This document shows, in pieces, positions 138 to 56,821 of a stretch of DNA of 64,000 nucleotides. The notes beneath the pieces were generated by a model. The model saw only the letters and a program-made list of their open reading frames with translations. It made no database searches and had not been told where the DNA came from. A program made the translations under genes and the position numbers. The stretch comes from Mobula hypostoma (taxonomy: Eukaryota): positions 52,020,001-52,084,000 of the forward strand of contig NC_086097.1 in assembly GCF_963921235.1 (NCBI RefSeq). The letters run 5' to 3'. The first letter of the stretch is position 1; the number at the start of each line of letters is the position of its first letter.

Positions 138-1324
138 AATACAATATATGTATTGTATTTTAAATAGTTGAGTTACAATAAGTAGTTCAAAAAAAGAAAT
201 AAATTTAAAAAGTAGAGGTAGTGTTCATGGATTTAGAAATCGGGTGGCAGAGGGGAAGAAGCTGTTCTTGAATCACTATACGTGCCTTCAGGCTTCTGTA
301 CCTCCATCCGGATGGTAACGATGAGAGAATGGCATGTCCTGGGTGGTGAGCGTCATTAATGGTGGACGCCACTTTCCTGAGGCATCGCTCCTTGAAGCTA
401 TCTTCAGTACTATGAAGGCTAGTACCCATGATGGAGCTGACAAATTTTACAATTTTCTGCACCTTACTATGAACCTGTACAGTAGCCACCCCCCCCCACC
501 CCCACACTTACCAGACAGTGATGCAGCCTCTAAGAATGCTCTCCATAGTACATCTATAGAAGTTTCCGAGTATTTTAGGTGACAAAAAAAAAGTTTCCAA
601 GTATTTTAGGTCTCCTCCAACGCATACTGAAATATAGCGCTGTCTTGCCTTCTTTATAGCTGTATCAATATGTTGCGACCAGTTTAGGTCCTCAGAGATA
701 TTGACACTCAGGAACTTGAAATTGCTCACTCTTTCCACTTCTGATGCTTCTATGAGGACAGGTTTGTGTTCCCTCGTTCTACCCTTGCTGAAGTCCACAA
801 TCAGATCTTTGGTCTTACTGATGTTGAGTGCAGGGTCGTTGCTGCGACTCCACTTAACTAGTTGGTATATCTCATTCCCGTACACCCTCTCATCACCATC
901 TGAGCTAAGTGTGTTTTTAAATGTTGCTGCTGTAACAAAAGAATTTCCCACTCAGGATCAATCAGATATTTATTATTATTATTATTATTTCCAACCTGCA
1001 TAGATTGTGGTCCTCTGGTTAGGAAGTCAAGGATCCATTTGCAGAGGGAGGTTCTGTAGCTTTTCAATCAGGATGGTAGGAATGATGGTGTTGAAATGAA
1101 CAGCATCCTGACATGGGTATTTGTATTTTCCAGGTGATCCAAGTCTGCGTAGAGAGCCATTGAGATCGTGTTCTCTGTAGACCTATTGTGGCAATAGGCA
1201 AATTGCAGTGGGTCCAGGATTACCGAGACAAGATTTGATTCTAGCCATGTCGAACTTCTCAAAGCACTTCATCACCATAGATGTGAGTGCTACTGAGCGA
1301 TAGTCATTAAGGCAGCTCACGCTA

Positions 1325-2011
1325 CAGGCAGTCCCCGGGTTACCAACGAGATCCGTTCCTAAGTTTGTCTTTAAGTCGAATTTGTAGGTAAGTCCGAACA
1401 GGTACATACGATTCTTATTTAGCGTCAGTCAAATGTTTGTCTTGGTATACAGTATATATATTACCTTTCTATGCATTAGACCCCAGCGCCGATTCCCCGC
1501 CACCTCCACCTCCCAGTAGTGTCTCTGCAATGTGAATCCCTCCGATCCCAGTACACAAGCCCAGCTTGTGAATCTCTTCCCAGTGTCAGTGAGGTCCCTT
1601 TGTGTTCCGGTACATCTCACACTCTTCCAACCTTCAGACACCTCCATTTCCCGATACACCTCAACATCCAGGGTGACAGAAACGGGGAGAAAAGCAGAGA
1701 ATTAGAGAGTCCCCGTGGATTGGGAGGAGACTCGGGCAGCGCGGCCCGCAGGACCGGGAGAAGGCTGCTGAGCCTCAGGCACAGTCGGGTAGCCGACAGG
1801 AACTGTTTTCAGAGTTTTATCTAACTACAGCGGATGGACAACCAGTATCCCCCCGAGATTTATCCTCCAGGACGGAGAGCAGATTTCCCAGTCAACACAC
1901 ACAAAATGCTAGAAGCAGAATGTGTTCGGAGAGACGGACAGGCTTTATGGCAGTCCGTTCGTAAGTACGAGTTGTCCGTAGGTCGGACATTCGTAACCCA
2001 GGGACTGCCTG
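1325..2011. mobile_element. Non-autonomous Tigger/pogo-like DNA transposon carrying captured host DNA
   Basis: TIRs CAGGCAGTCCCCGGGTTAC (1325) and GTAACCCAGGGACTGCCTG (ends 2011) match at 18/19 positions. TA duplication at 1323-1324 and 2012-2013. No transposase. Confidence 0.9.
1478..1682 (-). pseudogene. TRIM-family B30.2 (PRY-SPRY) exon fragment, 3'-truncated, inside the MITE
   Basis: Translates SVTLDVEVYREMEVSEGWKSVRCTGTQRDLTDTGKRFTSWACVLGSEGFTLQRHYWEVEVAGNRRWGL, with the VTLD, KRF, CVLGSEGF and HYWEVEV hallmarks. It is preceded by CTAAT plus a polypyrimidine tract, but the acceptor AG is missing. Confidence 0.9.
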
Positions 2012-2079
2012 TACTCTTCTTGGGAATTGATATAATTGTTGCCCTTTTGAAGCAAGTGGGAACTTCCAACCATAGTAAT

Positions 2080-2520
2080 TCGGAACTATTTCCAGTATCC
2101 ATTGATTCTAGAAAGATCACCATTAATGCCCCCGCAATCTCTTCAGCTAATCCTTTCAGGATCCTGGGGTATAGTCTATCTGGTCCAGGTGACTTATTTA
2201 CCTTCAGAACTTTCAGCTTCTCAAGCACCTTGTCCTTAGTAACAGCAACTGCACTCATTCCTGCTCCCTGGCACTCCTGAACTTACAGCATACTGCTTGT
2301 ATCTTCCACAGCGAAGACTGTTGCAAAATATTTATTACATTAACATTATTAGGACTGATGCAAAGTTCAGCCACCATTTCTTTGTCCTACAACCTACCTC
2401 TCCAGTATCATTTTCCAGTAGACCAATATCCACTCTCACCTCCCTTTTACTCTTCATATATCTGAAAAACATTTGGTATTCTCTTTTATATGATTGACTA
2501 GCATACCTTCATATTTCATC
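2080..2520 (-). mobile_element. CR1 LINE ORF2 fragment
   Basis: KDKVLEKLKVLKVNKSPGPDRLYPRILKGLAEEIAGALMVIFLESMDTG (ORF 1860-2258). Confidence 0.85.
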
Positions 2521-20365: not shown

Positions 20366-20979
20366 AAGCCTGATCATCATCCTGAATAACTTTTCCAATT
20401 TCATCTGCATTCAACAACTATCAGGATTAAACTCACCAGCCATTTGTTTGGAATATTTTCTTTTCTGTCTGCATCTTGCTATAAAAATAGGCAATTCATT
20501 AACCCTTTTTTTCGGAAAGCAATTATTTCTGTATATGGTGGATTTAGCTTCAGTATTTTCTGCTATCTGGTTTATATTGTGCTGCTGAATGACTAAGGGA
20601 ATGAAATCTACTGTGCAGTTCTTAATAGCCTTGAACAAAGTGCAGGGATTTTTGATGAATTTGTTATCCTCTGATCAGGTTTAACGTAGATCGGAATAAA
20701 TACATTGTGGAAGCTTCAATTTGTGCAGAGATTTCAAGACCAATCATTTGTCACTGTCACAAAAGACATTTGTGATAACTTTATGATTCAAGATCCTTCC
20801 AAGATTTTATGAGCCTTTCCAGTTTTCAAATCGCTCAAATCAGTCCATTGATGATACCAGAGCCTCTGCACAGCACTCTGTCCTGTCCCACCTGGAAAAT
20901 GCTGACTCATTAAGTCGGGAACACACATAAAAGTTGTTGGTGAACGCAGCAGGCCAGGCAGCATCTCTAGGAAGAGGTA

Positions 20980-21017
20980 CAGTCGATTTTTCGGGCCGAG
21001 ACCCTTCGTCAGGACTA
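20980..21017 (-). ncRNA. Minimal hammerhead ribozyme motif (PLE)
   Basis: Reverse complement TAGTC-CTGACGA-AGGGTCTCGGCCC-GAAA-AATC-GACTG. Core intact, stem III mutated. Confidence 0.6.
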
Positions 21018-22878
21018 ACTGAAAGAAGAGCTGGTAAGAGATTTGAAAGTGGGGGGGGGAAGGGGGAGATCCGAAGTGATAGGAGAAGACAGGAGGGGGA
21101 GAAATGGAGCCAAGAGCTGGACTGGTGATTGGCAAAAGGGATATGAGAGGATCATGGGACAGGAGGCCCAGGGAGAAGGAAAAGGGGGAGGGGGGAAAAG
21201 CCCAAAGGATGGGCAAGGGGTATAGTGAGAGGGACAGAGGGAGAAAAAGGAGAGAGAGAGAAAAAGAATGTGTGTATATAAATAAATAACGGATGGGGTA
21301 CAAGGGGGAGGTGGGGCATTAGCAGAAGTTTGAGGAGTCACTGTTCATGCCATCAGGTTGGAGGCTACCCAGACGGAATATAAGGTGTTGTTCTTCCAAC
21401 CTGAGTGTGGCTTCATCTTCACAGTAGAGGAGGTCGTGGATAGACATGTCAGAATGGGAATGGGATGTGGAATTAAAATGTGTGGCCACTGGAGATCCTG
21501 CTTTCTCTGGTGGACAAAGCGTAGGTTTTCAGCGAAATGATCTCCCAGTCTGCGTCAGGTGTCGCCAATATATAGAAGGCCACATCGGGAGCACCGGATG
21601 CAGTACATCACCCCAGCCGACTCACAGGTGAAATGTGAAAGCAGAGGGGTGGGGAGGGAAAGATGTGCTTAGTGGTGGGATCCCGTTGGAGGTGGTGGAA
21701 GTTACGGAGAATAATATGTTGGACCTGGAGGCTGGTGGGGTGGTAGGTGAGGACCAGGGGAACCCTATTCCTAGTGGGGTGGCAGGAGGATGGAGTGAGA
21801 GCAGATGTGCGTGAAATGGGGGAGATGTGTTTAAGAGCAGAGTTGATGGTGGAGGAAGGGAAGCCCCTTTCTTTAAAAAAGAAGGACATCTCACTCGTCC
21901 TGGAATGAAAAGCCTCATCCTGAGAGCAGATGCAGCGGAGACGGAGGAATTGCGAGAAGGGAGTGGCATTTTTGCAAGAGAGAGGAATAATCCAGATAGC
22001 CGTGAGAGTCAGTAGGCTTATAGTAGACATCAGTAGATAAGCTGTCTCCAGAGATAGAGACAGAAAGATCTAGAAAGGGGAGGGAGGTTTCCACAGGGAT
22101 CACTCCCTACGCGACTCCCTTGTCCATTTGTCCCCCCCATCCCTCCCCACTGATCTCCCTCCTGGCACTTATCCTTGTAAGTGGAACAAGTGCTACACAT
22201 GCCCTTACACTTCCTCCCTCACCACCATTCAGGGCCCCAGACAGTCCTTCCAGGTGAGGCGACACTTCACCTGTGAGTCGGCTGGGGTGATATACTGTGT
22301 CCGGCGCTCCTGATGTGGCCTTCTATATATCGGCGAGGCCCAACGCAGACTGGGAGATTGTTTTGCTGAACACCTACGTTCTGTCCGCCAGAGAAAGCAG
22401 GATCTCCCAGTGGCCAGACATTTTAATTCCACGTCCCATTCCCATTCTGACATGTCTATCCACGGCCTCCTCTACTGTAAAGATGAAGCCACACTCAGGC
22501 TGGAGGAACAACACCTTATATTCCGTCTGGGTAGCCTCCAACCTGATGGCATGAACATTGACTTCTCTAACTTCCGCTAATGCCCCACCTCCCCCTTGTA
22601 CCCCATCTGTTATTTATTGAAATACACACATTCTTTTTCTCTCTCTCCTTTTTCTCCCTTTGTCCCTCTCACTATACCCCTTGCCCATCCTTTGGGTTTT
22701 TCCCCCCTCCCCCTTTTCCTTCTCCCTGGGCCTCCTGTCCCATGATCCTCTCATATCCCTTTTGCCAATCACCTGTCCAGCTCTTGGCTCCATTTCTCCC
22801 CCTTCCGTCTTCTCCTAACATTTTGGATCTTCCCCTCCCCCTCCCACTTTCAAACCTCTTACTAGCTCTTCTTTCAGT

Positions 22879-22916
22879 TAGTCCTGACAAAGGGTCTCGG
22901 CCTGAAACGTCGACTG
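22879..22916 (+). ncRNA. Minimal hammerhead ribozyme motif (PLE), core mutated
   Basis: TAGTC-CTGACAA-AGGGTCTCGGCCT-GAAAC-GTC-GACTG. CUGANGA has become CUGACAA. Confidence 0.55.
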
Positions 22917-23029
22917 TACCTCTTCCTAGAGATGCTGCCTGGCCTGCTGCGTTCACCAGCAACTTTTATGTATGTTGCTTGAAATTCCAGCATCTGCAGA
23001 TTTCCTTGTGTTTACGTCATTAAGCCGAG

Positions 23030-34199: not shown

Positions 34200-34250
<51 letters not shown>

Positions 34251-35400
34251 CACATACACACACACTCACATACACATATACACACACACTCACACGTACA
34301 CACACACTCACATACACACACACTGACATACACACCCGCACACATACACACACACTCACACACACATATACACACACACTCACACATACACACACACTCA
34401 CACACACCCACACACACAATGACATGCACACTCTCACATACATGTAGAAACACACACACACGCACATACAAACACACACACACACATGCACATACACACA
34501 CACACTCACACACACCCACACGCACATACACACACGCACACTCACACACACCCACACACACAATGACATGCACACACACTCACACGCGCACATACAAACA
34601 CACACACACACACACACACACTCACATACGCTCACATACACACACACTCACATACACATATCATACACATATACACACACACTCACACGTACACACACAC
34701 TCACATACACACACACTGACATACACACCCGCACACATACACACACACTCACACACACCCACACACACAATGACATGCACACTCTCACATACATGTAGAA
34801 ACACACACACACGCACATACAAACACACACACACACACGCACATACACACACACACTCACACACACCCACACGCACATACACACACACACACTCACACAC
34901 ACCCACACACACAATGACATGCACACACACTCACACGCGCACATACAAACACACACACACAAACACACACACACACGCACACGCACATACACATACACAC
35001 ACACACACTCACACACACCCACACACACAATGACATGCACACACACTCACATACACGTAGAAACACACACACACACGCACATACACACACACACACACAC
35101 ATACACACACACACACACACACAGACACACCAGACCTTCATTCTTAAGACAGGAAGACAGGCCGCCCCTGGGCCTTCCAGCCTTCAGTGGACATGTTGAC
35201 TTGCGGACATCAGGCCATTGACTTTCAGGCAGACGGACCTTGGTGATTTGACCATTGGGCCTCAGCTTCTGGACTTGCTGACTTTGGGCTTCGATCCATT
35301 GCCCCTGGGACTTACTGATCGTGGGTCTTGATTTCCAAACTTCAAACTCCATACTCGATTAGACCAGCGAGTCCAGAACTTACTGACTGAACCCAGGACT
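33971..35400 (-). mobile_element. Probable non-autonomous LINE-tailed repeat hosting the CA expansion
   Basis: ATTCAGATTCAGATTCATTTATT tail like those of Rex1-type elements, with GC-richer repeat-like sequence on both sides of the microsatellite. Confidence 0.4.
34202..35130. repeat. Compound (CA)n microsatellite with higher-order duplication
   Basis: ~930 bp of interrupted CA. CACAATGACATGCACA recurs 5 times and CATGTAGAAA occurs at 34441 and 34792. Confidence 0.95.
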
Positions 35401-36607: not shown

Positions 36608-39600
36608 TATTATGTTTTGTAACTCCAGAAAATAATTGAAAGAAAAACACAGGAGGCCTGGAAAACATGTCTACTTCATTTTCTTTTTAAGAGGCATTGA
36701 CATATGATGTGCTGGCATAATGACGTATGCCAGTCAGATAATTCTACTTATAACCCGTATTGAATCTTGTAAACAACAAAGAATGCTTAATTAAACAATA
36801 TATTTACAATGTTACTTAAACATTACTGAAATATTAAATACACAACACTCCCTGCTTAGATATAAACTACAACTCAATATAGAATGCATGTCAACTATAT
36901 ATACAGTATACTAATACAACTGCTATATAGACATCTACAGAATAGTCAATTTTAAATCATCTCATTCAGGCCAAGAGATTTAATCCTTGTGGAGGATTTC
37001 TTACTTTTGTGGGATAATGTCTTTCCTGACATTTCTTGGCAGGAGAGGCTTGTGTCTCTGAAATAATGTCAGGTTCTGGGGCCTTCTCCATGGTGGTGTA
37101 GGAGTTGACTCTGAGACTGCAGGTGACAGCTCTGGACATATTTCTTCTCTAACAATTGATTGCTGTCTTCAACTGATTAATGCATTGTCTCCAGATGACA
37201 TCAGGCACAATCTCCGCTGAGTAGGAGAGCGGTCCAATTCTGTCCTTCATCTTTCTGAACACCCACTTTTGATCATCCCTATAGTCCCTCACCAGGACTG
37301 CTTGCCCAGGAGTGAAACATCAATCCTCCTTGTTTGAGGAACCCTCAATTTGTCGCGGCTGTCTGTCCTGCATCCCTCTCCTGAGATTGGGTTTGAGAAG
37401 ATTTGGTGTGAGTGCAGGGGACGACCCAGGAACAGCATAGCTGGTGAGTTGTTGATTGTGGAGTGTGGTGCACTGCGATATGCAAAGAGGAACTTGTTGA
37501 GCTGATTCCGTGTCAGTGTAGTGTGTTCTGCTGACATTGTTCACAGTGTCTTCTTTAGACTCTGGGCAAACCTTTCCACCAAGCCATTTGTAGCTGGGTG
37601 TCATGGTGCCGATGGAATATGTCTTATTCCATTCATTTTCAGGAATGACTGAAACTGTTCCACAACAAACTGTGGTCCATTGTCACTGACTAAGTGTTTT
37701 AGAACACCAGTGCTTGAGAAGAGACTTTTCAACACATCAACTGTGTGCAAGGCTGTAGTAGAAGCTATTCGGAACACTTCTGGCCATCTTGTAGCTGCAT
37801 CCACTACTACCAAGAAATTTGTGCACATGGATGGCCTGGCAAAATCCACATGAATCTTCTGCCAGGGCAATGCTAGGGATGGAAGGGCGCTGCTCTTGGC
37901 ATCTACTGGATATGTTGGCATCCTGAACAATGCATGGCAATCTCCTTGATCTGCTGATCTGTCTCACTTCCATCACTATAACACGTGACATGATTGCACC
38001 TACACCATAAGCTGGATGTGTGAGTACAGAGTCTGACATCACCATGTCCTCTGTCTTTTGGAAAGGCATCTCACACTGCTTGCCTGTTGCCATTTCTTCA
38101 CGATTTAGTAGTGATGAGATCAAGGGGTGGAGTACAGTAACCAGGCTTGGCAAGAACCTGTTATGGTAATTGACAAACACTAAAAGGGCTGCTACTGTGA
38201 CAGGTCCTTGGGCCTTGGGGTTTCCATCTCAGCACGCCAGTATAATTCTTGTGTGTCAATGGTGCGCCCACAGTAAGTGGTACTTGGTTTAAAGTATTTA
38301 CACTTGTGTCATTCTCGGAGCCCATAATCTTCTAATCTTTTTAACACAGTCTTGAGTTTGTGGAGATGTTCCTTGTCAGCGTCACTAGTAACAATGATGT
38401 ACTCCAGGTAACACCGAGTGTCTGGGCAGCCTTGTAGCACCTAGCCCATAGCTTTCTGCTAGGTGCAGATGCTACTCCCAAATAAGCCTGTTATAGTGAT
38501 AAAGCCCTTTGTCAGTGCTTATGATGAGAAACACTTTGGACTCTTTTTCTCATCTCCATCTGTAACTAGGTTTCAGCTAAGTTCATTTTGCTGAAGCGTT
38601 TTCCTCCAGAAAGGTTTGCAAAGATATCCTCTAACCTGGGCAGAGGGTATTGATCTACTTTCAGTACCGAGTTGATGGTGATTAAAATCACTACCGATCC
38701 TGACAATTCCAATTCTTCTTGGCCCACTGGTGTTGCCCATGGGCTCTACTGAACCTTGGAAAGAATTTCTTCAGCCACCATGTGAACTAGCACACTGGCT
38801 ACTTTATCACTGCAGGTATAAGGAACCAGATAGGATTAGGGTGCGGCATTTTCATTTAACACTATTTTACCCTAGATATGTTTGAGTTTTCCAATGCCGT
38901 CCTTGAACACTGCTTTGGCATCATCCAGTACCTTTTTTAAATTCACTTTCAGTTGAGTCTCATGCAGGAGATGTGGCATGCAAATGGTAAATGGATCTCC
39001 AAACAGGTTGTAGTTGTCTCAGCCAATCATAGTCCTGCAATGCTGGATCCACCCTCCCCCCACTCCCCACCCCACCGTTTTTGTTACATACAAGCTCAAT
39101 TAGGCTTGTTGGTTGTTGTATTTCACTGTTATGAATGTCATTCCCATAGGAGTTTTTTTCCCCAGTATAACTTCTTAGTTGGGTATCTGCAGGGTTCCGT
39201 TTAGTATACTTGAAATGCTGTGAAAACTAACTTTGTGTTATGACTGAAACAGTTGAGCCTGTGTATGCTCATCCTCCTATTGCACTCAGCAAAACTGGCA
39301 CTTGTTTCTCGTTAGCTGTTCCATTTGCTATAAAATGCTACACAATTCATTTAGTATACTATACATCACCCAGTTATCTGTTGCGCAATCAAGGGCATCT
39401 ATATTTCTGACGTAGACAGTCATTTCTGCTTTGTTTTCTCATAATTTTCACCCACTACTCACTGTTTATGAACCTGTGAATTTTGTCCATTTTCTGCCTT
39501 TTGTTTTAACTCAATTATCTTTCTCCCCTTCTGAAGAAACAAGTGCTGCGCTTTTTTAAAAACTCAAACATCTCTCTTTCCCCTTGTAAAGAATAAAACA

Positions 39601-46989: not shown

Positions 46990-49900
46990 GAATATCTCCC
47001 TATGATAGCAGAGATGGTCCAAAGGGAAACTAGAAAAGACTTCACATTATCTCAGGTCTACATAGCCACTCAAAATGGCTGGAATGTGCAACAAAAATCC
47101 CACTTCCCTTATTTTTACCAGTGCTGGGATGAACTTGTCCTCGATGGGGCTTATGTGGTGATTGAGGGATTGAGTGTTGTTGTAACATCCAAGCTGAGAG
47201 TGAATGTGTTGGAGGAGTTGCATGCTGGTCATCTGGGCGTGGTGAAAATGAAAACAGCAGCTCAAAGTTTTCTCTGGAGGCCTGGGATATATCCACAGAT
47301 TGAGCATCTTGCTATACACTATACGCATGCCAACATGTCCAGAAGATGCCAAGAGCAGCACCTCTCCATCCCTGAGAAAGGCCTGCATTGCCCTGGTAGA
47401 GGATTCATGTAGATTTTGCTGGACCGTTCATGGGCAGAAATCTCTTGGTAGTAGTGGCTGTAGCTACAAGGTGGCCAGAAGTGTTCCTAGTGACCTCCAC
47501 TGCAGCCTTGCACACTGTTGATCTGTTGAGAAGCCTCTTTGCAAAGACTGAATGTTCCATAATGGACTACAGTTTGTGGAGGAACAGTTTCAATTATTCC
47601 TGAAAATGAATGGAATAAGACAAATTATATCTGCACCCTATCACCCAGCTGCAAATGGTTTGGTGGAAAGGTTTGTCCAGAGTCTAAAGAACACAATGTG
47701 CACAATGTCAGCCGAACACAACACTAACACTGAACCAGAAGCTTGCTAATTTCCTCCTTGCATATCGTAATGCAACACCCTACATGACCCAGACCTCACC
47801 ATCTATGTTGTTTCTGGGTTGTCTTTTGCATTCATACTTGGATCTCCTCAAACTCAGTCTCAGACGGAGGACACAAGACAGGCGGCTGAGACAAGCTGAA
47901 GGCTCCTCAAACAAGGAGGTTCAATGTTTCACTCCTGGACAAGCAGTCCTGGTGAGGGACTACAGGGATGATCAAAAGTGGGTGTTCAAAAGGATTAAGG
48001 ACAGAACTGGACCACTCTCCTAATAGTGGAGATTGAGTCTGATATCATCTGGAGACAACACATCAATCAGTTGAGGAGAGCAGAGTCAATTGATAGAGAA
48101 GAAAGTTGCCTGCCACTGTCAGAACCACATCCTGCAGACTCAGTCAGCTCCTACCGCCACCACGAAGGAGGCCCCAGGACCTGAGATTGCTTCAAAGTCA
48201 CAACTCTGATCCACCAAACAGAGTGATCCTGCATGTCACGAAAGACGTTATCTCACAAGAATAAGAAATCCTCTACAGCGATTACATCTTTAAGCCCAAA
48301 TGGAACAATTTAAAACTTACAATGCTGTGGATGTCTGTATAGAGTAGTTGTGTTAGATAGTATACTGTGTATATAGTTGAGATGCATTCTACATTGAGTT
48401 GGAGTAAATAGCTAAGCAGGGAGGAATGTTGTTTCAATATTTTGGTTGTATTTGAGTAATCTTGTATCTAGATTGGTTGATTGAGCATTCCTGTTTGTTT
48501 AACTAATTAATTACGGGTCATATGCAAAAAATATGTTAATTGTATATGTCATTATACTATCACGTGATACTCGAACTACACCTGTATTTCGGACTCCTCG
48601 CATCTCCTTTTGAATTAATTTAATGTTTTGAAGTTACAAAACATAACAATGGCCAACTGAATTAATTTAACTGTATGATAATTGAATTAAATCTGTCGTT
48701 AAATCTGGTCTTCTACTAAATCTGGCCTTAAATTCATTGAATATGAAGGTGGCTGATGGATCTAAATCTCCCTTCAACTGAAAGACCTGGAATGAGGTAG
48801 TAAAGTTTAACAGCTCATAATAATGATAGCATTCCTTTCATAATTTTTTGAGTTCTTGGTTTTAAAATGTTTCTGATTTTGAATAAAACATTGCAAAATT
48901 ATCTGGAAGAGTTTAACCTGGACAAATTTGAGTTGCATGATGTGTACCTGGTGTATTCAATACTTCAGCAATCATTCCAAAATTATTTCCTAGCTTTTCT
49001 TTCAAAGGAAACCTCTGTGGGAATATAATTTTTCAATAAAGCCTTTGAGCCACACTGAACTCAGAATGTGGTATTGTGCAATGCCTCCGTTTAACAAATT
49101 GAAGAGAATTAATTTTGTCATTAAGAAAACTTTAATCAACATGTGGATACATTTATGATGTTATTTAGAAAAAGTTTTTCAAATTGAGTCAGAGTCATAG
49201 AACACTACAGCACAGAATCAGGTCCTTTGGCTAATCTAGTCGATGCCAAACTTCTCTGCCTAGTCTCATTGACCATTAAATATTTCACCTTTCACTCTTA
49301 ACTCATGACCTTTAGTTCTAGTAGTGAGATGTCATTCAATATTTTGGTGCTCCACTACATGTCTAATGTTTTTACATTCAGTGTGATAATGTGGCATGAA
49401 CTATTTATGTTGTGCACTTTCTGTTGCGTTACAGATCTGAAGCAAAATAGACTTCTTCAGGCAATTTATTTCTCCATTCGCCATCAGGCTGCGTTTCATA
49501 CTTGAGTGTGTAATTTTAGTTATATTCATCTTAAAAAATATCACTGTTTCAGGCTTTTGTAAGTTAACATTAAATTGGGTGAGTTACCAACCTCAAGTGG
49601 TCATGAAGGGGAAAACAGTCTAACAGTGTGACACATGTTACAATGCTGACAGGCATGGATCTGAAAAGATGGCTATTTCCTTTTCCCTAGTGGGACTGAG
49701 ATTTTACAAAAGTAGATGGTTCAGCATATTTCAAATTCCTTTTGGAGCCTGATGGCTTGCTACACATTTCCAGTAGCCATAGCTGACACAATGAGCTATC
49801 GTCAACAGCTATGTTTCAAATGAGTCCAAGCAAGAGTAATTTATTTTAGCATACTTTCAAGTTATCAAGGGCTGCAGCTCATTATTTGCCTAATAGGCAC

Positions 49901-50898: not shown

Positions 50899-52110
50899 TG
50901 TTGCAAGGGGCGGCTGGAGGAAGTGGACCCAAGTGCAGGACACAGGCATGGAGACTTGACATGGAGACAGACTTGGACTTGACTTGGACGCGGAGCCAGG
51001 ACTTAGACTTGACTTGGACACAGAGTCTGGACTTGGACTTGACTGGAACACAGAGCCTGGACTTGGACTTCACTGGAACACAGAGCCTGGACTTGGACTT
51101 CACTGGAACACAGAGCCTGGACTTGGACTTCACTGGAACACAGAGCCTGGACTTGGACTTCACTGGAACACAGAGCCTGGACTTGGACTTGACTGGAACA
51201 CAGAGCCTGGACTTGGACTTGACTGGAACACAGAGCCTGGACTTGGACTTGACTTGGACACAGAGCCTGGACTTGGACTTGACTGGAACACAGAGCCTGG
51301 ACTTGGACTTGACTGGAACACAGAGCCTGGACTTGGACTTGACTTGGACACAGAGCCTGGACTTGGACTTGACTGGAACACAGAGCCTGGACTTGGACTT
51401 GACTGGAACACAGAGCCTGGACTTGGACTTGACTGGAACACAGAGCCTGGACTTGGACTTGACTTGGACACAGAGCCTGGACTTGGACTTGACTGGAACA
51501 CAGAGCCTGGACTTGGACTGGGACACAAAGAGACAGAATTCCCATAGCGGCAAATGGCCGGACCTACTCAGCTGGAAATGAGATGACTAAACCAAACAAA
51601 AACAGGCAATACGTATCTTGACATGGAGAAGCTCATGAAGCGGCAAATGGCTGGCAATCACTTGACTGGACACGAAGCCTTGACTTGGACTGAGACTTGG
51701 AGCCTTCAAAACAAAACAACAGGCCACTCGAATCCCGGTTCAGAGCAGCGGCAAAACTCAGCTGGACACGAGACAACAAAAACAAACAACGATAGAGCAC
51801 TCACATCGCGGGTTGGAGCAGTGGCAATATGGCCGGCATCACACAGCTGGACATGAGACAACAAAAACAAACAACAACAGACAATATGAGTCTTGACACG
51901 AAGCTCATGAAGATGGTCCATTATTCTTGGCGGCTCAGAACATTCATCGCCGCCCTGGCTACGGTGACAAACCAGCAGCGAGTAGATGTAAGCTGGAGTT
52001 TTTATGCTGCCAATTCAAATGAGAATCAGGTGCCCTAATCAAGGAGCCCAGTGGAACACGGGGAAAAGGAAATTAACTGAAATGAGGAGTCAACAGACCG
52101 GATTGTGACA
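50899..52110 (-). mobile_element. Solo LTR related to 41462-43254, with an expanded minisatellite
   Basis: TG...CA termini and TSD CAAAA/CAAAG. Shares terminal motifs (GGACCCAA.TGCA.GACACAG; TCCGGTC; GGCAC.TGATTCTC) with the 41462-43254 LTR in opposite orientation. Confidence 0.8.
50971..51527. repeat. 30-bp minisatellite, 18 full units plus a partial unit
   Basis: Unit ACTTGGACTTGACTGGAACACAGAGCCTGG with variant middles CACTGGAACA and GACTTGGACA. No spacers. Confidence 0.97.
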
Positions 52111-53484: not shown

Positions 53485-55211
53485 TCCTATTCTAACATCT
53501 CATATTGGTCTCTAACACTATCCATTGAAATCATGATGGTGTAGCCAAAGGATGCTTATTCCAAGGGCCAGAGCTGCTCTGCAACCAGGCTCAGGGCTCA
53601 ATTTATTTTACAAATCCAGGAGAGTACTGAATGCTGGAAGCTGCAAGGAAGCTCTTCTATTGACCTTATGAAATTGTTATGCTCCTTCCCTAAAAGAAGA
53701 AACAGGGCTACAGGGATCTTGTTCCTGAATTCAAAACCTGGGTAAGGATGTGACCACATCCATCTACTAGGGATACCTTTTTCCCTTCCTTGTAATCTTA
53801 CTGCTCCTGTACACTGCTCTATAACTTCCAGTTTGTGCTCCCTCCTTGTCCAGGTCATTTTCTGCTATGGATGTCTTTGAGCAGGTGTGTGGTTAAGCAG
53901 CACTCAGTGAAGGCAGCCCCCTCTGCTTCTTCTCAAAGAGAATCACATGAGTCCCAGAAGTCTGAGAGTATCCTGGGACAACAGGATTAACTTTCTTGCA
54001 ACCAATGCAATACAAAGGAGGTGCTAAAAGCAGTTATTGCACTGACCCAAGTCTCCTTCTTAATAGGCCAAAGCTTCATTATTTGTGGTCAACATGATGT
54101 GGGATATAAACGCTTGGATAGAACATAATTTACTATAGGAGAAAATAATGCACTAGGTGCCCTGTTTCCAGAACATAATCCACTGTGATATGTGACTTCC
54201 ACATTTTTATCACAATCAATCAGAAACAGATTACCCCATAATTACAGATGTGACAATTGGTCAAACTGTGGGTGTGCAGAGAACTCAGGTTGTTTTTTTT
54301 TAATTCAAATGACACAATCCCCTAAATATAGGACAAAAATAATAACTTGATAGAATGAAAGGTGTAGTCTAGCAAAGTTTAGCAAAGCCACTTAATACAT
54401 GTTAATAAAGAAACATATCTGTAGAATCAAATGAGGTATTTTGAATTGTGCTCCTTGTTGCTTGCCAAAAGGTTAGTCACCTCAATAAAAGCTGCAAATA
54501 CTTGCACATCCACACAAATTAACATGGGAAGGCATCTTTACCACTAATTGGCAATAGAACTCATTAAATTGTTACTTACTCATTCTATTCAAACATACTT
54601 TTCCTTTTGTCAGTTTAAGAATGCATAAACCTTTCTTTTAATCAATGTTTCTCAGGTGAAGTTGTTTAAATCTTATATATATTGAAATAAATTTTTGAAA
54701 GGTGCACTGTAGGTATCTCATAAGCTGTAAAAAGCTAGAATGCTCTTAACATTTTGAATCAGAAGTTTATAAAATCTTGATTCCACTTCCTGCACTAACT
54801 GCATATTTAAAGCTAAAAATACCTTTCAGTGAAAGAAAACTAACTGCCAAGTGAGCTTTTTATAAAACAGTTATGTCCAAAGCAAATGTTATTCACTTAG
54901 ATTAACAAGTAATTCTCCCTATTGTGGAGCAGAATATCCACTCTTTTTCAGACTCAATATTTCCAATGTTTATGTTCATTACTTCTTGTCAGGAACTTCT
55001 TGGTGTTCATTTTGTGCACCGTTCTTGTACAATAGCATCACGCATAACACAGGAATTGCAGCAGAACTCCCAACAATATTAAAGCTTTTTAATTTCCTAC
55101 TAAATTGACATTCCTTCAGTCTTTTTAATTGAACAAATTATGATTTAAAGTAACACACATCAAAGTTGCTGGTGAACGCAGCGGGCCAGGCAGCATCTCT
55201 AGGAAGAGGTA

Positions 55212-55249
55212 CTGTCGACGTTTCGGGCCGAGACCGTTCGTCAGGACTA
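55212..55249 (-). ncRNA. Minimal hammerhead ribozyme motif (PLE)
   Basis: Reverse complement TAGTC-CTGACGA-ACGGTCTCGGCCC-GAAAC-GTC-GACAG. Core and GUC triplet intact. Confidence 0.65.
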
Positions 55250-56113
55250 ACTGAAGAAAGAGCTAGTAAGAGATTTGAAAGTGGGAGGGGGAGGGGGAGA
55301 TCCAAAATGATAGGAGAAGACAGGAGGAGGAGGGATGGAGCCAAGAGCTGGACAGGTGATTGGCAAAAGGGATATGAGAGGATCATGGGACAGGAGGCCC
55401 AGGGAGAAAGAAAAGGGGGGAGGGGGAAAAAAGCCCAGAGGATGGGCAAGGGGTATAGTGACAGGGACAAAAAGGAGAGAGAGAGAAAGAATGTGTGTAT
55501 ATAAATAAATAACAGATGGGGTACAAGGGGGAGGTGGGGCATTAGCGGAAGTTTGAGAAGTCAATGTTCATGCCATCAGGTTGGAGGCTACCCAGACGGA
55601 ATATAGGGTGTTGTTCCTCCAACCTGAGTGTGGCTTCATCTTTACAGTAGAGGAGGCCGTGGATAGCCATATCAGAATGGGAATGGGACGTGGAATTAAA
55701 ATGTGTGGCCACTGGGAGATCCTGCTTTCTCTGGCAGACAGAGCGTAGGTGTTCAGCGAAACGATCTCCCGGTCTGTGTCGGGTCTCGCCAATATATAGA
55801 AGGCCACATGGGGAGCACTGGAGGCAGTATATCACCCCAACCGACTCACAGGTGAAGTGTCGCCTCACCTGGAAGGACTGTCTGGGGCCCTGAATGGTGG
55901 TAAGGGAGGAAGTGTAAGGGCAAGTTTCAGCGAAACGATCTCCCAGTCTGCGTCGGGTTAACCTACTGTCCAGCCCATGATCCTCTCATATCCCTTTTGC
56001 CAATCATCTGTCCAGTTCTTGGCTCCATCCCTCCCCCTCCTGTCTTCTCCTATCATTTCAGATCTACCCTTCCCCCTCCCACTTTCAAATCTCTTACTAG
56101 CTCTTCTTTCAGT

Positions 56114-56151
56114 TAGTCCTGACGAAAGGTCTCGGCCCGAAACATCGACTG
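56114..56151 (+). ncRNA. Minimal hammerhead ribozyme motif (PLE)
   Basis: TAGTC-CTGACGA-AAGGTCTCGGCCC-GAAAC-ATC-GACTG. Confidence 0.6.
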
Positions 56152-56821
56152 TACCTCTTCCTAGAGATGCTACCTGGCCTGCTGCGTTCACCAGCAACTT
56201 TGATGTGTGATGCTTGAATTTCCAGCATCTGCAGAATTCCTCGTGTTATGATTTAAAGTAAGAAGGTTTAATGTGAAGTTTCTATTAAGATCAATGTTTT
56301 TCTCCAACATTACTGTTATAGATTTGTTGAATTAAAATGCATGATTTGTTGTCATTAGGGTGCTGTTGACACCTGAAACTGCCAATATTGTCTGTATGCT
56401 GTAAATTAAAAGCAGAGCTAATGCTCGAGCATATACCTGACTGCTATTTCTGATCCTTGGGGATAGGATCAGACTGTGTATACTGAACTTCATGGGATCT
56501 AACCTTAGAATAAAGTAAATCCTGTTATTCTGAATCTTTGGTTAGTTCTCAGCTGCTTTTAGAACATTGAGCTGCCAAATCTACTTAATGGTAGCTTATT
56601 TCAATATTTGTAAAACCGTCACCGTAAACAGGTTAATGGAGTAGGTTGGAAAGTTAAAATATGACTGTTTCCTCTGTAGCTTCTTTCCCATTTTTGTCTA
56701 TTTTACGTTTATAACAGACCAAAGCACAAATATCTTTTTTCTACAATTGCTTGATTCTACACTCTGCGGCCACTTTGCTCTGTAGCTCCTGTACCTAATA
56801 AAGTGTCTACTGAGTGCACAC

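What the first reader, a model, noticed from the sequence alone, without database searches (positions are those of the whole stretch)
1325..2011. Pack-type Tigger MITE carrying an intron-exon piece of a TRIM PRY-SPRY gene
Seen: 19-bp TIRs (18/19 match) and TA duplicated on both sides. The flanking Rex1 rejoins cleanly when the 687 bp are removed. Between the arms lie ~440 bp of foreign DNA (~1477-1918): 68 stop-free codons of a B30.2 domain, preceded by CTAAT, a polypyrimidine tract and CpG-rich intron-like DNA. The acceptor reads CTCCCCG|TT, so the AG is lost. Known: B30.2 is the target-recognition module of TRIM proteins, which are expanded in fishes. Gene-fragment capture by DNA transposons is common in plants (Pack-MULEs) and reported much less often in vertebrates. 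Inference: the retained intron implies DNA-level capture. If the cargo-bearing form is multicopy, it would be a mobile vehicle spreading B30.2 exon pieces or antisense/small-RNA templates against TRIM genes.
Basis: partly seen in the sequence, partly recalled or inferred. Interest (0 to 1): 0.8.

Follow-up and report, generated by a model that had tools for sequence, protein, structure and literature searches.

The report
Ray transposon carrying immune-gene pieces
A dead cut-and-paste transposon in a ray genome holds an intron-and-exon piece of a TRIM-type immune gene at two unrelated sites, and about 100 sister copies hold DNA from just behind the same exon, so this transposon family likely picked up DNA from the immune-gene cluster twice and spread it as decaying, likely passive cargo.

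Summary
Observation confirmed and extended. Window 1325-2011 is a TA-flanked pogo/Tigger-type derivative: 152-bp and 72-bp arms around about 465 bp (1477-1941) copied from the last intron and B30.2 exon of a ray TRIM or butyrophilin-like gene (Pfam PRY, E 1e-12). A second copy on contig C75 has both junctions and unrelated flanks. A close relative has both copies. Two more distant relatives have a clean empty site at C75 yet carry the right junction elsewhere. So this is a real multicopy Pack-TIR; Tan et al. 2021 found only 4 among 281 in 100 animal genomes. The cargo is decaying: both acceptors are broken, C75 has a stop, and there is no sign of purifying selection.

New here: the same family has a second cargo lineage, 97 sites on 29 contigs, carrying DNA 30-285 nt behind the stop codon of the same exon, in the opposite orientation. 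Best reading: abortive gap repair with template switching, likely twice at the TRIM cluster, then transposition in trans. New member of a known kind, with an unexplained repeat hit on one gene family.

The parts
1323..1324 (.). Left TA of the target-site duplication
   Evidence: Sequence; the empty site keeps one TA
1325..1476 (+). Left Tigger arm, parent positions 1-156 (the end downstream of the transposase, which runs on the minus strand); 24-bp TIR in the family consensus
   Evidence: 38 of 40 scored hits match the arm only and stop at 1474-1476; 7 private and 0 shared changes in 151 sites
1477..1682 (-). First 206 nt of the terminal B30.2 exon (PRY and start of SPRY); in-frame 3-bp deletion; base 1477 is filler or a changed donor base
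   Evidence: PRY E 1.2e-12; at most 84% identical to donor exons; exon start fixed by annotated proteins
1683..1705 (-). Branch-point motif CTAAT, pyrimidine tract and broken acceptor (A of AG missing)
   Evidence: Alignment with 9 donor loci that all keep CAG|TC
1706..1895 (-). GC-rich end of the donor's last intron, with one unit of a 34-35-bp minisatellite that is multi-unit in C96-type donors and in the C75 copy
   Evidence: 74-82% matches only at B30.2 cluster loci among 40 scored
1896..1941 (-). Start of the cargo: a piece of a common repeat that lies in the donor intron, with a 16-bp gap shared by both copies; AG microhomology at 1940-1941
   Evidence: Donor alignments; the 34-nt end is found only in the two copies at up to 3 mismatches
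1940..2011 (+). Right Tigger arm, last 72 bp of the parent, with TIR
   Evidence: 38 of 40 scored hits are arm-only; 3 private and 0 shared changes
2012..2013 (.). Right TA of the target-site duplication
   Evidence: Sequence
1018..1322 (-). Host non-LTR retrotransposon (Rex1-like by recall), part after the insertion in reading order
   Evidence: Translation and rejoined frame
2014..2080 (-). Short remainder of the host retrotransposon, then a CR1-like reverse-transcriptase piece (label recalled)
   Evidence: Translation

Best explanation
This is a non-autonomous pogo/Tigger-type transposon whose interior was replaced, likely during abortive repair of an excision break, by an intron-exon piece of a TRIM-type B30.2 gene, and which was then likely moved in trans to at least two sites as passive, decaying cargo. 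Shown: the anatomy; a single origin of the two cargos; unrelated flanks; a clean empty site in two relatives; decay; and a sister lineage (forms B, C, D; 97 sites) with one shared junction to DNA behind the same exon. Inferred: repair synthesis copied 156 bp from one end and 72 bp from the other, switched template at a 2-bp microhomology, and end-joined on the other side. Both ends stayed intact, so the transposase of the then-active family could move it. Also inferred: the sister lineage is a second capture by the same arm type. The likely shared cause is a source element near the TRIM cluster, or the GC-rich terminal-exon module acting as a favoured template.
For: Second copy: C75:45272425-45273246 is 88-89% identical, TA-flanked, with both junctions; best flank similarity E 0.045. 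Each junction pattern matches exactly at 2 places; 19 other near matches are not copies.

One origin: the two exon pieces form one clade, 100/100, with 24 shared and 7 + 7 private changes. The arms share 0 of 223 changes, so capture was into a fresh element. Arm and cargo divergence agree, 28/223 vs 36/389, p 0.22.

Relatives: organism B has both insertions. D and E join the C75 flanks, skipping 824 nt, with sides of 131 and 244 nt. D and E have contigs across the right junction: 2 listed in D, 1 in E by at least 31 nt and 1 by 28. C, D and E have contigs across the C75-type acceptor deletion.

Parent: HTH_Tnp_Tc5 and DDE_1 domains and many deletion derivatives of 216-1492 bp. Large terminal-biased deletions are what Tan et al. 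expect from excision repair (PMC8277862 section 8).

Sister lineage.
Against: The exact donor was not found: at best 88% of exon sites match either copy, while each extant paralog has a neighbour at 92% or more. Microhomology is only 2 bp and on one side, near chance. The left junction is not bridged in the listed contigs of C, D or E (tables cut to 32 rows). Zero shared arm changes would also fit conversion between resident copies. No family copy with the transposase's DNA-binding part lies inside the TRIM clusters among 150 listed matches, so the near-cluster source is not shown. No copy links the two cargos (0 of 49 extra loci with exon DNA).
Confidence: 0.82

Rival explanations
1. Forms A and B-D come from one longer, partly inverted capture that later deletions cut down in different ways.
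For: Two independent captures within the same 1.1-kb module of one gene family are very unlikely by chance (rough estimate 1e-4 of the genome: about 150 first-look exon candidates, times 1.1 kb, over 3.48 Gb). Form D and form A have the same arm type. Form D has a 17-bp filler at its left junction. B, C and D are already deletion products of one capture.
Against: The orientations are opposite. The B-D cargo is 95-96% like C96-type donors, whereas form A reaches at most 88%, which suggests different donors. None of 49 further junction loci holds exon DNA, nor did the element-borne cargo of the 30 form-B and 13 form-C/D loci.
Confidence: 0.25
2. The cargo spread without transposition: a resident Tigger was gap-filled, and a break in another resident copy was repaired from it.
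For: The arms share no derived change. Tan et al. find gap filling of resident elements to be the usual route (PMC8277862 section 8).
Against: D and E have no Tigger at the C75 site. Arms and cargo have diverged equally. Both breakpoints are base-identical. Several more copies appear in relatives.
Confidence: 0.07
3. The cargo is kept or amplified because it works, as an exon donor or as a source of antisense or small RNA against the TRIM cluster.
For: The window copy has an open PRY frame and an exact 36-nt match to one donor. Form B reached about 85 copies.
Against: Acceptors are broken in both copies and C75 has a stop. Private changes are 4 synonymous and 13 non-synonymous against 51 and 156 sites. 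CpG observed/expected has fallen from 0.78 in a donor to 0.58. Form B's cargo starts behind the likely poly(A) signal at +602. No host-gene-like open frame of 120 aa or more was recognised by eye in the window.
Confidence: 0.07
4. The second copy arose by segmental duplication, or the element is an assembly artefact.
For: Both right flanks begin TACTCT.
Against: TACT follows 8 of 41 family copies. The flanks are otherwise unrelated. Contigs of organism A bridge both junctions with 0 differences (possibly the source sample), and B holds the orthologs.
Confidence: 0.01

Closest known systems
Multicopy Pack-TIRs of animals, e.g. Pack-hAT-N8_XT of the western clawed frog (Tan et al. 2021, PMC8277862; abstract, sections 7-9, passages and supplement rows read)
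   Same: TE ends with target duplications around host DNA; copies far from the donor; no cargo-less element at the orthologous site in outgroups; short microhomology; GC-rich cargo (0.55 against 0.42 for the window).
   Different: Host is a ray; their one cartilaginous fish, elephant shark, had 0 Pack-TIRs. The cargo is a coding exon of an immune gene family with its intron. A second lineage of the same family reaches 97 sites, against 3 for their frog example. One TE family hits one gene family twice.
Single-copy Pack-Tigger1 of gibbons (same paper, section 8)
   Same: Tigger vehicle with TA duplication.
   Different: That one was filled after insertion, with cargo-less orthologs in outgroups and typically small gaps. 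Here almost the whole interior is replaced and the element moved afterwards.
Ssk-FB4 of Drosophila melanogaster (same paper, section 9) and plant Pack-MULEs (recalled)
   Same: Capture followed by repeated transposition.
   Different: Ssk-FB4 holds an almost whole gene and makes protein. This cargo is a promoterless, acceptor-dead fragment in a short-TIR pogo element, not a MULE.
pogo superfamily, Tigger family (Gao et al. 2020, PMC7386202; passages read)
   Same: TIRs of 40 bp or less; parent has CENP-B-type HTH and DDE_1 domains; TA duplication.
   Different: Placement in the Tigger clade by tree and the catalytic spacing were not tested.

Membership tests
pogo/Tigger non-autonomous element | TA target-site duplication | tested here: met
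   Both copies; the empty sites keep one TA
pogo/Tigger non-autonomous element | Short TIRs (40 bp or less) | tested here: met
   24 bp in the consensus of 12 copies
pogo/Tigger non-autonomous element | Parent encodes a CENP-B-type HTH and a DDE_1 transposase | tested here: met
   L055: PF03221 E 4.6e-7, PF03184 E 6.9e-12
pogo/Tigger non-autonomous element | Transposase groups with Tigger rather than another pogo family | not tested
   No tree built; the label rests on domains and recall
Multicopy Pack-TIR (Tan et al. 2021) | Host, non-TE DNA between two TE ends | tested here: met
   Contiguous intron-exon match to B30.2 genes
Multicopy Pack-TIR (Tan et al. 2021) | Donor copies are not themselves inside the TE | tested here: met
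   No arm match in 80 kb around three donors or in 17 cluster loci
Multicopy Pack-TIR (Tan et al. 2021) | Same junctions at different insertion sites | tested here: met
   2 sites for form A; 97 sites for the sister junction, control 0
Multicopy Pack-TIR (Tan et al. 2021) | No cargo-less element at the orthologous site in outgroups | tested here: met
   C75 site empty in organisms D and E; the C1 site could not be judged because its flanks are a high-copy repeat
MITE | High copy number | tested here: not met
   Form A has 2 copies in this genome; only the sister form B is numerous
TRIM gene as donor | B30.2 exon preceded by RING and B-box exons | tested here: inconclusive
   RING exons lie 11-21 kb upstream at three donor loci, but butyrophilin-like ray proteins use the same exon and the exact donor was not found
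Functional captured exon | Intact splice acceptor and purifying selection | tested here: not met
Functional captured exon | Transcription or small-RNA production | not testable with these tools
   No usable RNA run was laid

The most novel reading that the evidence does not exclude
The terminal-exon module of the ray TRIM/butyrophilin cluster is a capture hotspot for one Tigger lineage, and the roughly 100 dispersed copies of TRIM-derived DNA act in trans on the cluster as small-RNA sources or regulatory elements, or gave the carrier a transposition advantage.
Probability: 0.08. Interest if true: 0.75.

Novelty: new member of a known kind. Interest (0 to 1): 0.5.

Why it matters
Multicopy Pack-TIRs are rare in vertebrates (4 of 281 in PMC8277862), and that survey could not resolve their origin for want of close outgroups. 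Here close relatives give filled and empty sites. The unchanged arms date capture to the family's active phase, and deletion derivatives record the order of events. One transposon family took DNA from the same immune-gene module twice, or once in a complex way. That makes the question of what makes a locus a capture template testable in ray genomes. The cargo also preserves a B30.2 paralog no longer found among the best hits here. There is no evidence of a host function.

Tried and rejected
More form-A copies in this genome: six searches and two junction patterns gave only C1 and C75. DNA searches scored 40 candidates each, out of 70 to 1434, so degraded copies may be missed.

Exact donor: not found among 47 distinct donor loci.

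Expression: no RNA holder listed; this is no evidence either way, and no RNA run was laid.

Left junction in organisms C, D and E: not seen in the listed rows, but the tables were cut.

Idea that the DNA behind the exon is a dispersed repeat: rejected; among 40 scored places the non-element matches are at B30.2 cluster loci.

Longer cargo linking the two lineages: 0 of 49 (46 show form-B-range cargo, 3 gave no hit).

Source element inside the cluster: not found; two family copies on C96 lie 3.8 Mb or more away, as chance would give. No intact transposase frame of this family among 150 listed matches.

Same family as the rDNA-carrying Tigger of earlier notes: rejected, no BLAST hit.

Selection against acceptors, from two losses: dropped, because the C75-type loss is shared by contigs in relatives and so arose once in a source copy.

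Literature: 'Pack-TIR' is in 3 papers. Searches (listings only, apart from the papers named) showed no report of this element. Passages of bioRxiv 10.1101/2025.06.08.657570 had nothing on it. Subscription journals and repeat libraries such as Repbase or Dfam were not searched. No earlier scan note matched by words or sequence.

Full report
Observation. The element spans 1325-2011 between two TA dinucleotides, with inverted ends 92% complementary over 24 nt including the TA. Removing it and one TA restores a retrotransposon reading frame, and 5 of 24 hits among fetched loci span the rejoined site. The name Rex1 is recalled. The minus strand carries 68 open codons that hit PRY at E 1.2e-12. The best-scoring single-domain relatives of the donor exon are proteins of myliobatiform rays, named zinc-binding protein A33-like, TRIM39-like, nuclear factor 7-like or butyrophilin-like (best 120 of 1200 listed). 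The host is therefore likely a ray.

The vehicle. Junction searches show many family copies whose match stops at window 1476 on the left and starts at 1940 on the right (38 of 40 scored hits each). Of 41 copies with both ends, lengths run from 216 to 1492 bp and most are internal deletions of one parent. A long copy encodes HTH_Tnp_Tc5 and DDE_1 pieces, so the parent is pogo-type; 'Tigger' rests on these domains and recall. Copies lie about 5% from the arm consensus. No intact frame of this family was seen among 150 listed matches. Form A keeps parent positions 1-156 and the last 72 bp; the transposase and its 5' leader are gone.

The cargo. Positions 1477-1941 match B30.2 loci on C12, C96 and C9 in one piece at 77-82%. 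Annotated proteins begin this exon at VSVTLD after unrelated upstream exons. RING and B-box exons lie 11-21 kb upstream at three loci. So 1683-1941 is true intron and capture was at DNA level. Donors keep CTAAT...CAG|TC; the window has lost the A. The right junction has a 2-bp microhomology and the left is blunt or has one filler base. The exact donor is missing: at best 88% of exon sites agree with either copy, while extant paralogs have neighbours at 92% or more (47 loci). Butyrophilin-like genes use the same exon, so TRIM is likely but not certain.

Copy number and mobility. A second copy at C75:45272425-45273246 has both junctions, TA on both sides and unrelated flanks. It carries about 4-5 units of the donor's 35-bp minisatellite, has lost the whole acceptor, and has an in-frame stop. 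No third copy was found. The two exon pieces form one clade (100/100) with 24 shared and 7 + 7 private changes. The arms share 0 of 223 changes and have 10 and 18 private ones. Arm and cargo divergence do not differ (p 0.22). Capture therefore went into a fresh element and the copies parted soon after.

Related species. Contigs of organism A bridge both junctions without differences, though this may be the source sample. Organism B has the C1 insertion, with contigs across both flank-TIR borders and about 97% identity, and the C75 insertion. Organisms D and E, 7-8% diverged in the flanks, join the C75 flanks directly, skipping 824 nt, the element plus one TA. They nevertheless have contigs across the right cargo-arm junction (D: 2 listed; E: 1 by at least 31 nt and 1 by 28; 3 and 5 contigs cover the last cargo bases). 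C, D and E have overlapping contigs that run across the C75-type acceptor deletion. The form is thus older than the C75 insertion and likely present at several loci in relatives. Alleles cannot be told from loci in contigs, and the left junction was not seen there in tables cut to 32 rows.

A second cargo lineage. Among the 39 other family copies, three hold DNA from behind the same exon. With the exon start as 0, the stop is at +533 and an AATAAA at +602. Form B carries about +656 to +817; all 40 scored candidates span both junctions at 86-92%. Form C carries +596 to +817 or less, at 12 places. Form D (C12:50.41 Mb) carries +565 to +817 behind a 17-bp filler. B, long C and D share one right junction, found at 97 sites on 29 contigs with control 0. 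They are one capture trimmed by deletions, and in B and D it replaces the transposase start. TA flanks both ends in 14 of 19 B and 8 of 8 C copies with automatic ends. Outside elements this DNA was found only at B30.2 loci among 40 scored places, and the C consensus is 95-96% like C96-type donors. Its orientation is opposite to form A. No copy joins the two cargos (0 of 49). Two other inserts (L051, 246 bp; L038, 85 bp) were not identified.

Mechanism. The best reading is excision of an active element, repair synthesis from both ends, a template switch at microhomology, end-joining, and then mobilisation in trans. Tan et al. expect large, terminal-biased deletions from excision repair and small internal gaps from gap filling of resident elements (PMC8277862 section 8); form A fits the former. 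Their fork-switch model (section 9) cannot be excluded. Hitting the same 1.1-kb module twice has a rough chance of 1e-4, so a shared cause is needed. It could be a source element near the cluster (their cis bias), a favoured GC-rich template, or one complex capture (rival, 0.25). None is shown. A different TA-flanked family in this genome carries the 28S rRNA start (earlier notes; checked), which fits a bias towards GC-rich tandem loci but does not prove it.

Function. Nothing supports one. Both acceptors are broken, private changes are neutral in pattern (4 synonymous and 13 non-synonymous against 51 and 156 sites), the open frame is expected by chance (P 0.80), and CpG is decaying. Exact matches to donors reach 36 and 27 nt, so a small-RNA role is possible but untested.

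Comparison and novelty. It meets the tested features of a multicopy Pack-TIR. Tan et al. found 4 such cases among 281 unique Pack-TIRs, in frog and alligator, and none of any kind in elephant shark (sections 7-9 and supplement rows). I found no report of this element in the searches; subscription journals and repeat libraries were not covered. Verdict: new member of a known kind, well documented by filled and empty sites, with an unexplained repeat hit on one immune-gene module. Interest 0.5.

Noticed in passing
L045, L059, L076, L195-L236, L247, L275-L323 (G000, 29 contigs): Sister Pack lineage of the same family with DNA from behind the B30.2 exon; 97 junction sites; forms B, C and D.
   Followed up: yes
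Run X13 (organism F) laid on window 1150-2200: Holds both transposon arms at 88% or more, with the parent's inner sequence as loose ends, but next to no cover on the retrotransposon flanks or the cargo (10 of 30 bins). A distant host with the same family would hint at horizontal transfer.
   Followed up: no
L191:2671-3384, L192:2186-2968, L194:2849-3728: A different TA-flanked TIR family carrying the 28S rRNA start (RF02543, E 5.8e-20 for L191).
   Followed up: partly
L138, L177, L179, L187, L249 and other C96-type donors: A 34-35-bp GC-rich minisatellite of variable unit number sits just before the branch point of the last intron.
   Followed up: partly
G000 C12 0.3-13.3 Mb, C96 5.3-7.5 Mb, C9 203.4-203.8 Mb: Large clusters of B30.2 exons, at least 47 distinct loci fetched, near contig ends; annotated TRIM and butyrophilin-like ray proteins share a near-identical terminal exon.
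   Followed up: partly
L003 and other donors, upstream of the exon: The reading frame stays open about 90 codons back into the intron at several donors, and 2 of the database protein stretches read through it; likely a GC effect and mis-prediction.
   Followed up: no
L051 element 229-474; L038 element 245-329: Unidentified inserts in family copies; the first looks like a tRNA-derived SINE by recall.
   Followed up: no
window 36742-38022 and 47385-48529: Inverted pair of LTR-retrotransposon integrase fragments about 10 kb apart.
   Followed up: no
window 20920-23012 and 55143-56247: Penelope-like pieces (label recalled; weak GIY-YIG hit, E 0.007) in direct and inverted arrangement, 90-95% alike.
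   Followed up: no
window 50970-51519 and 34202-35130: An 18-copy 30-bp tandem array, 95% matched and open in several frames, and a long degenerate CA array.
   Followed up: no
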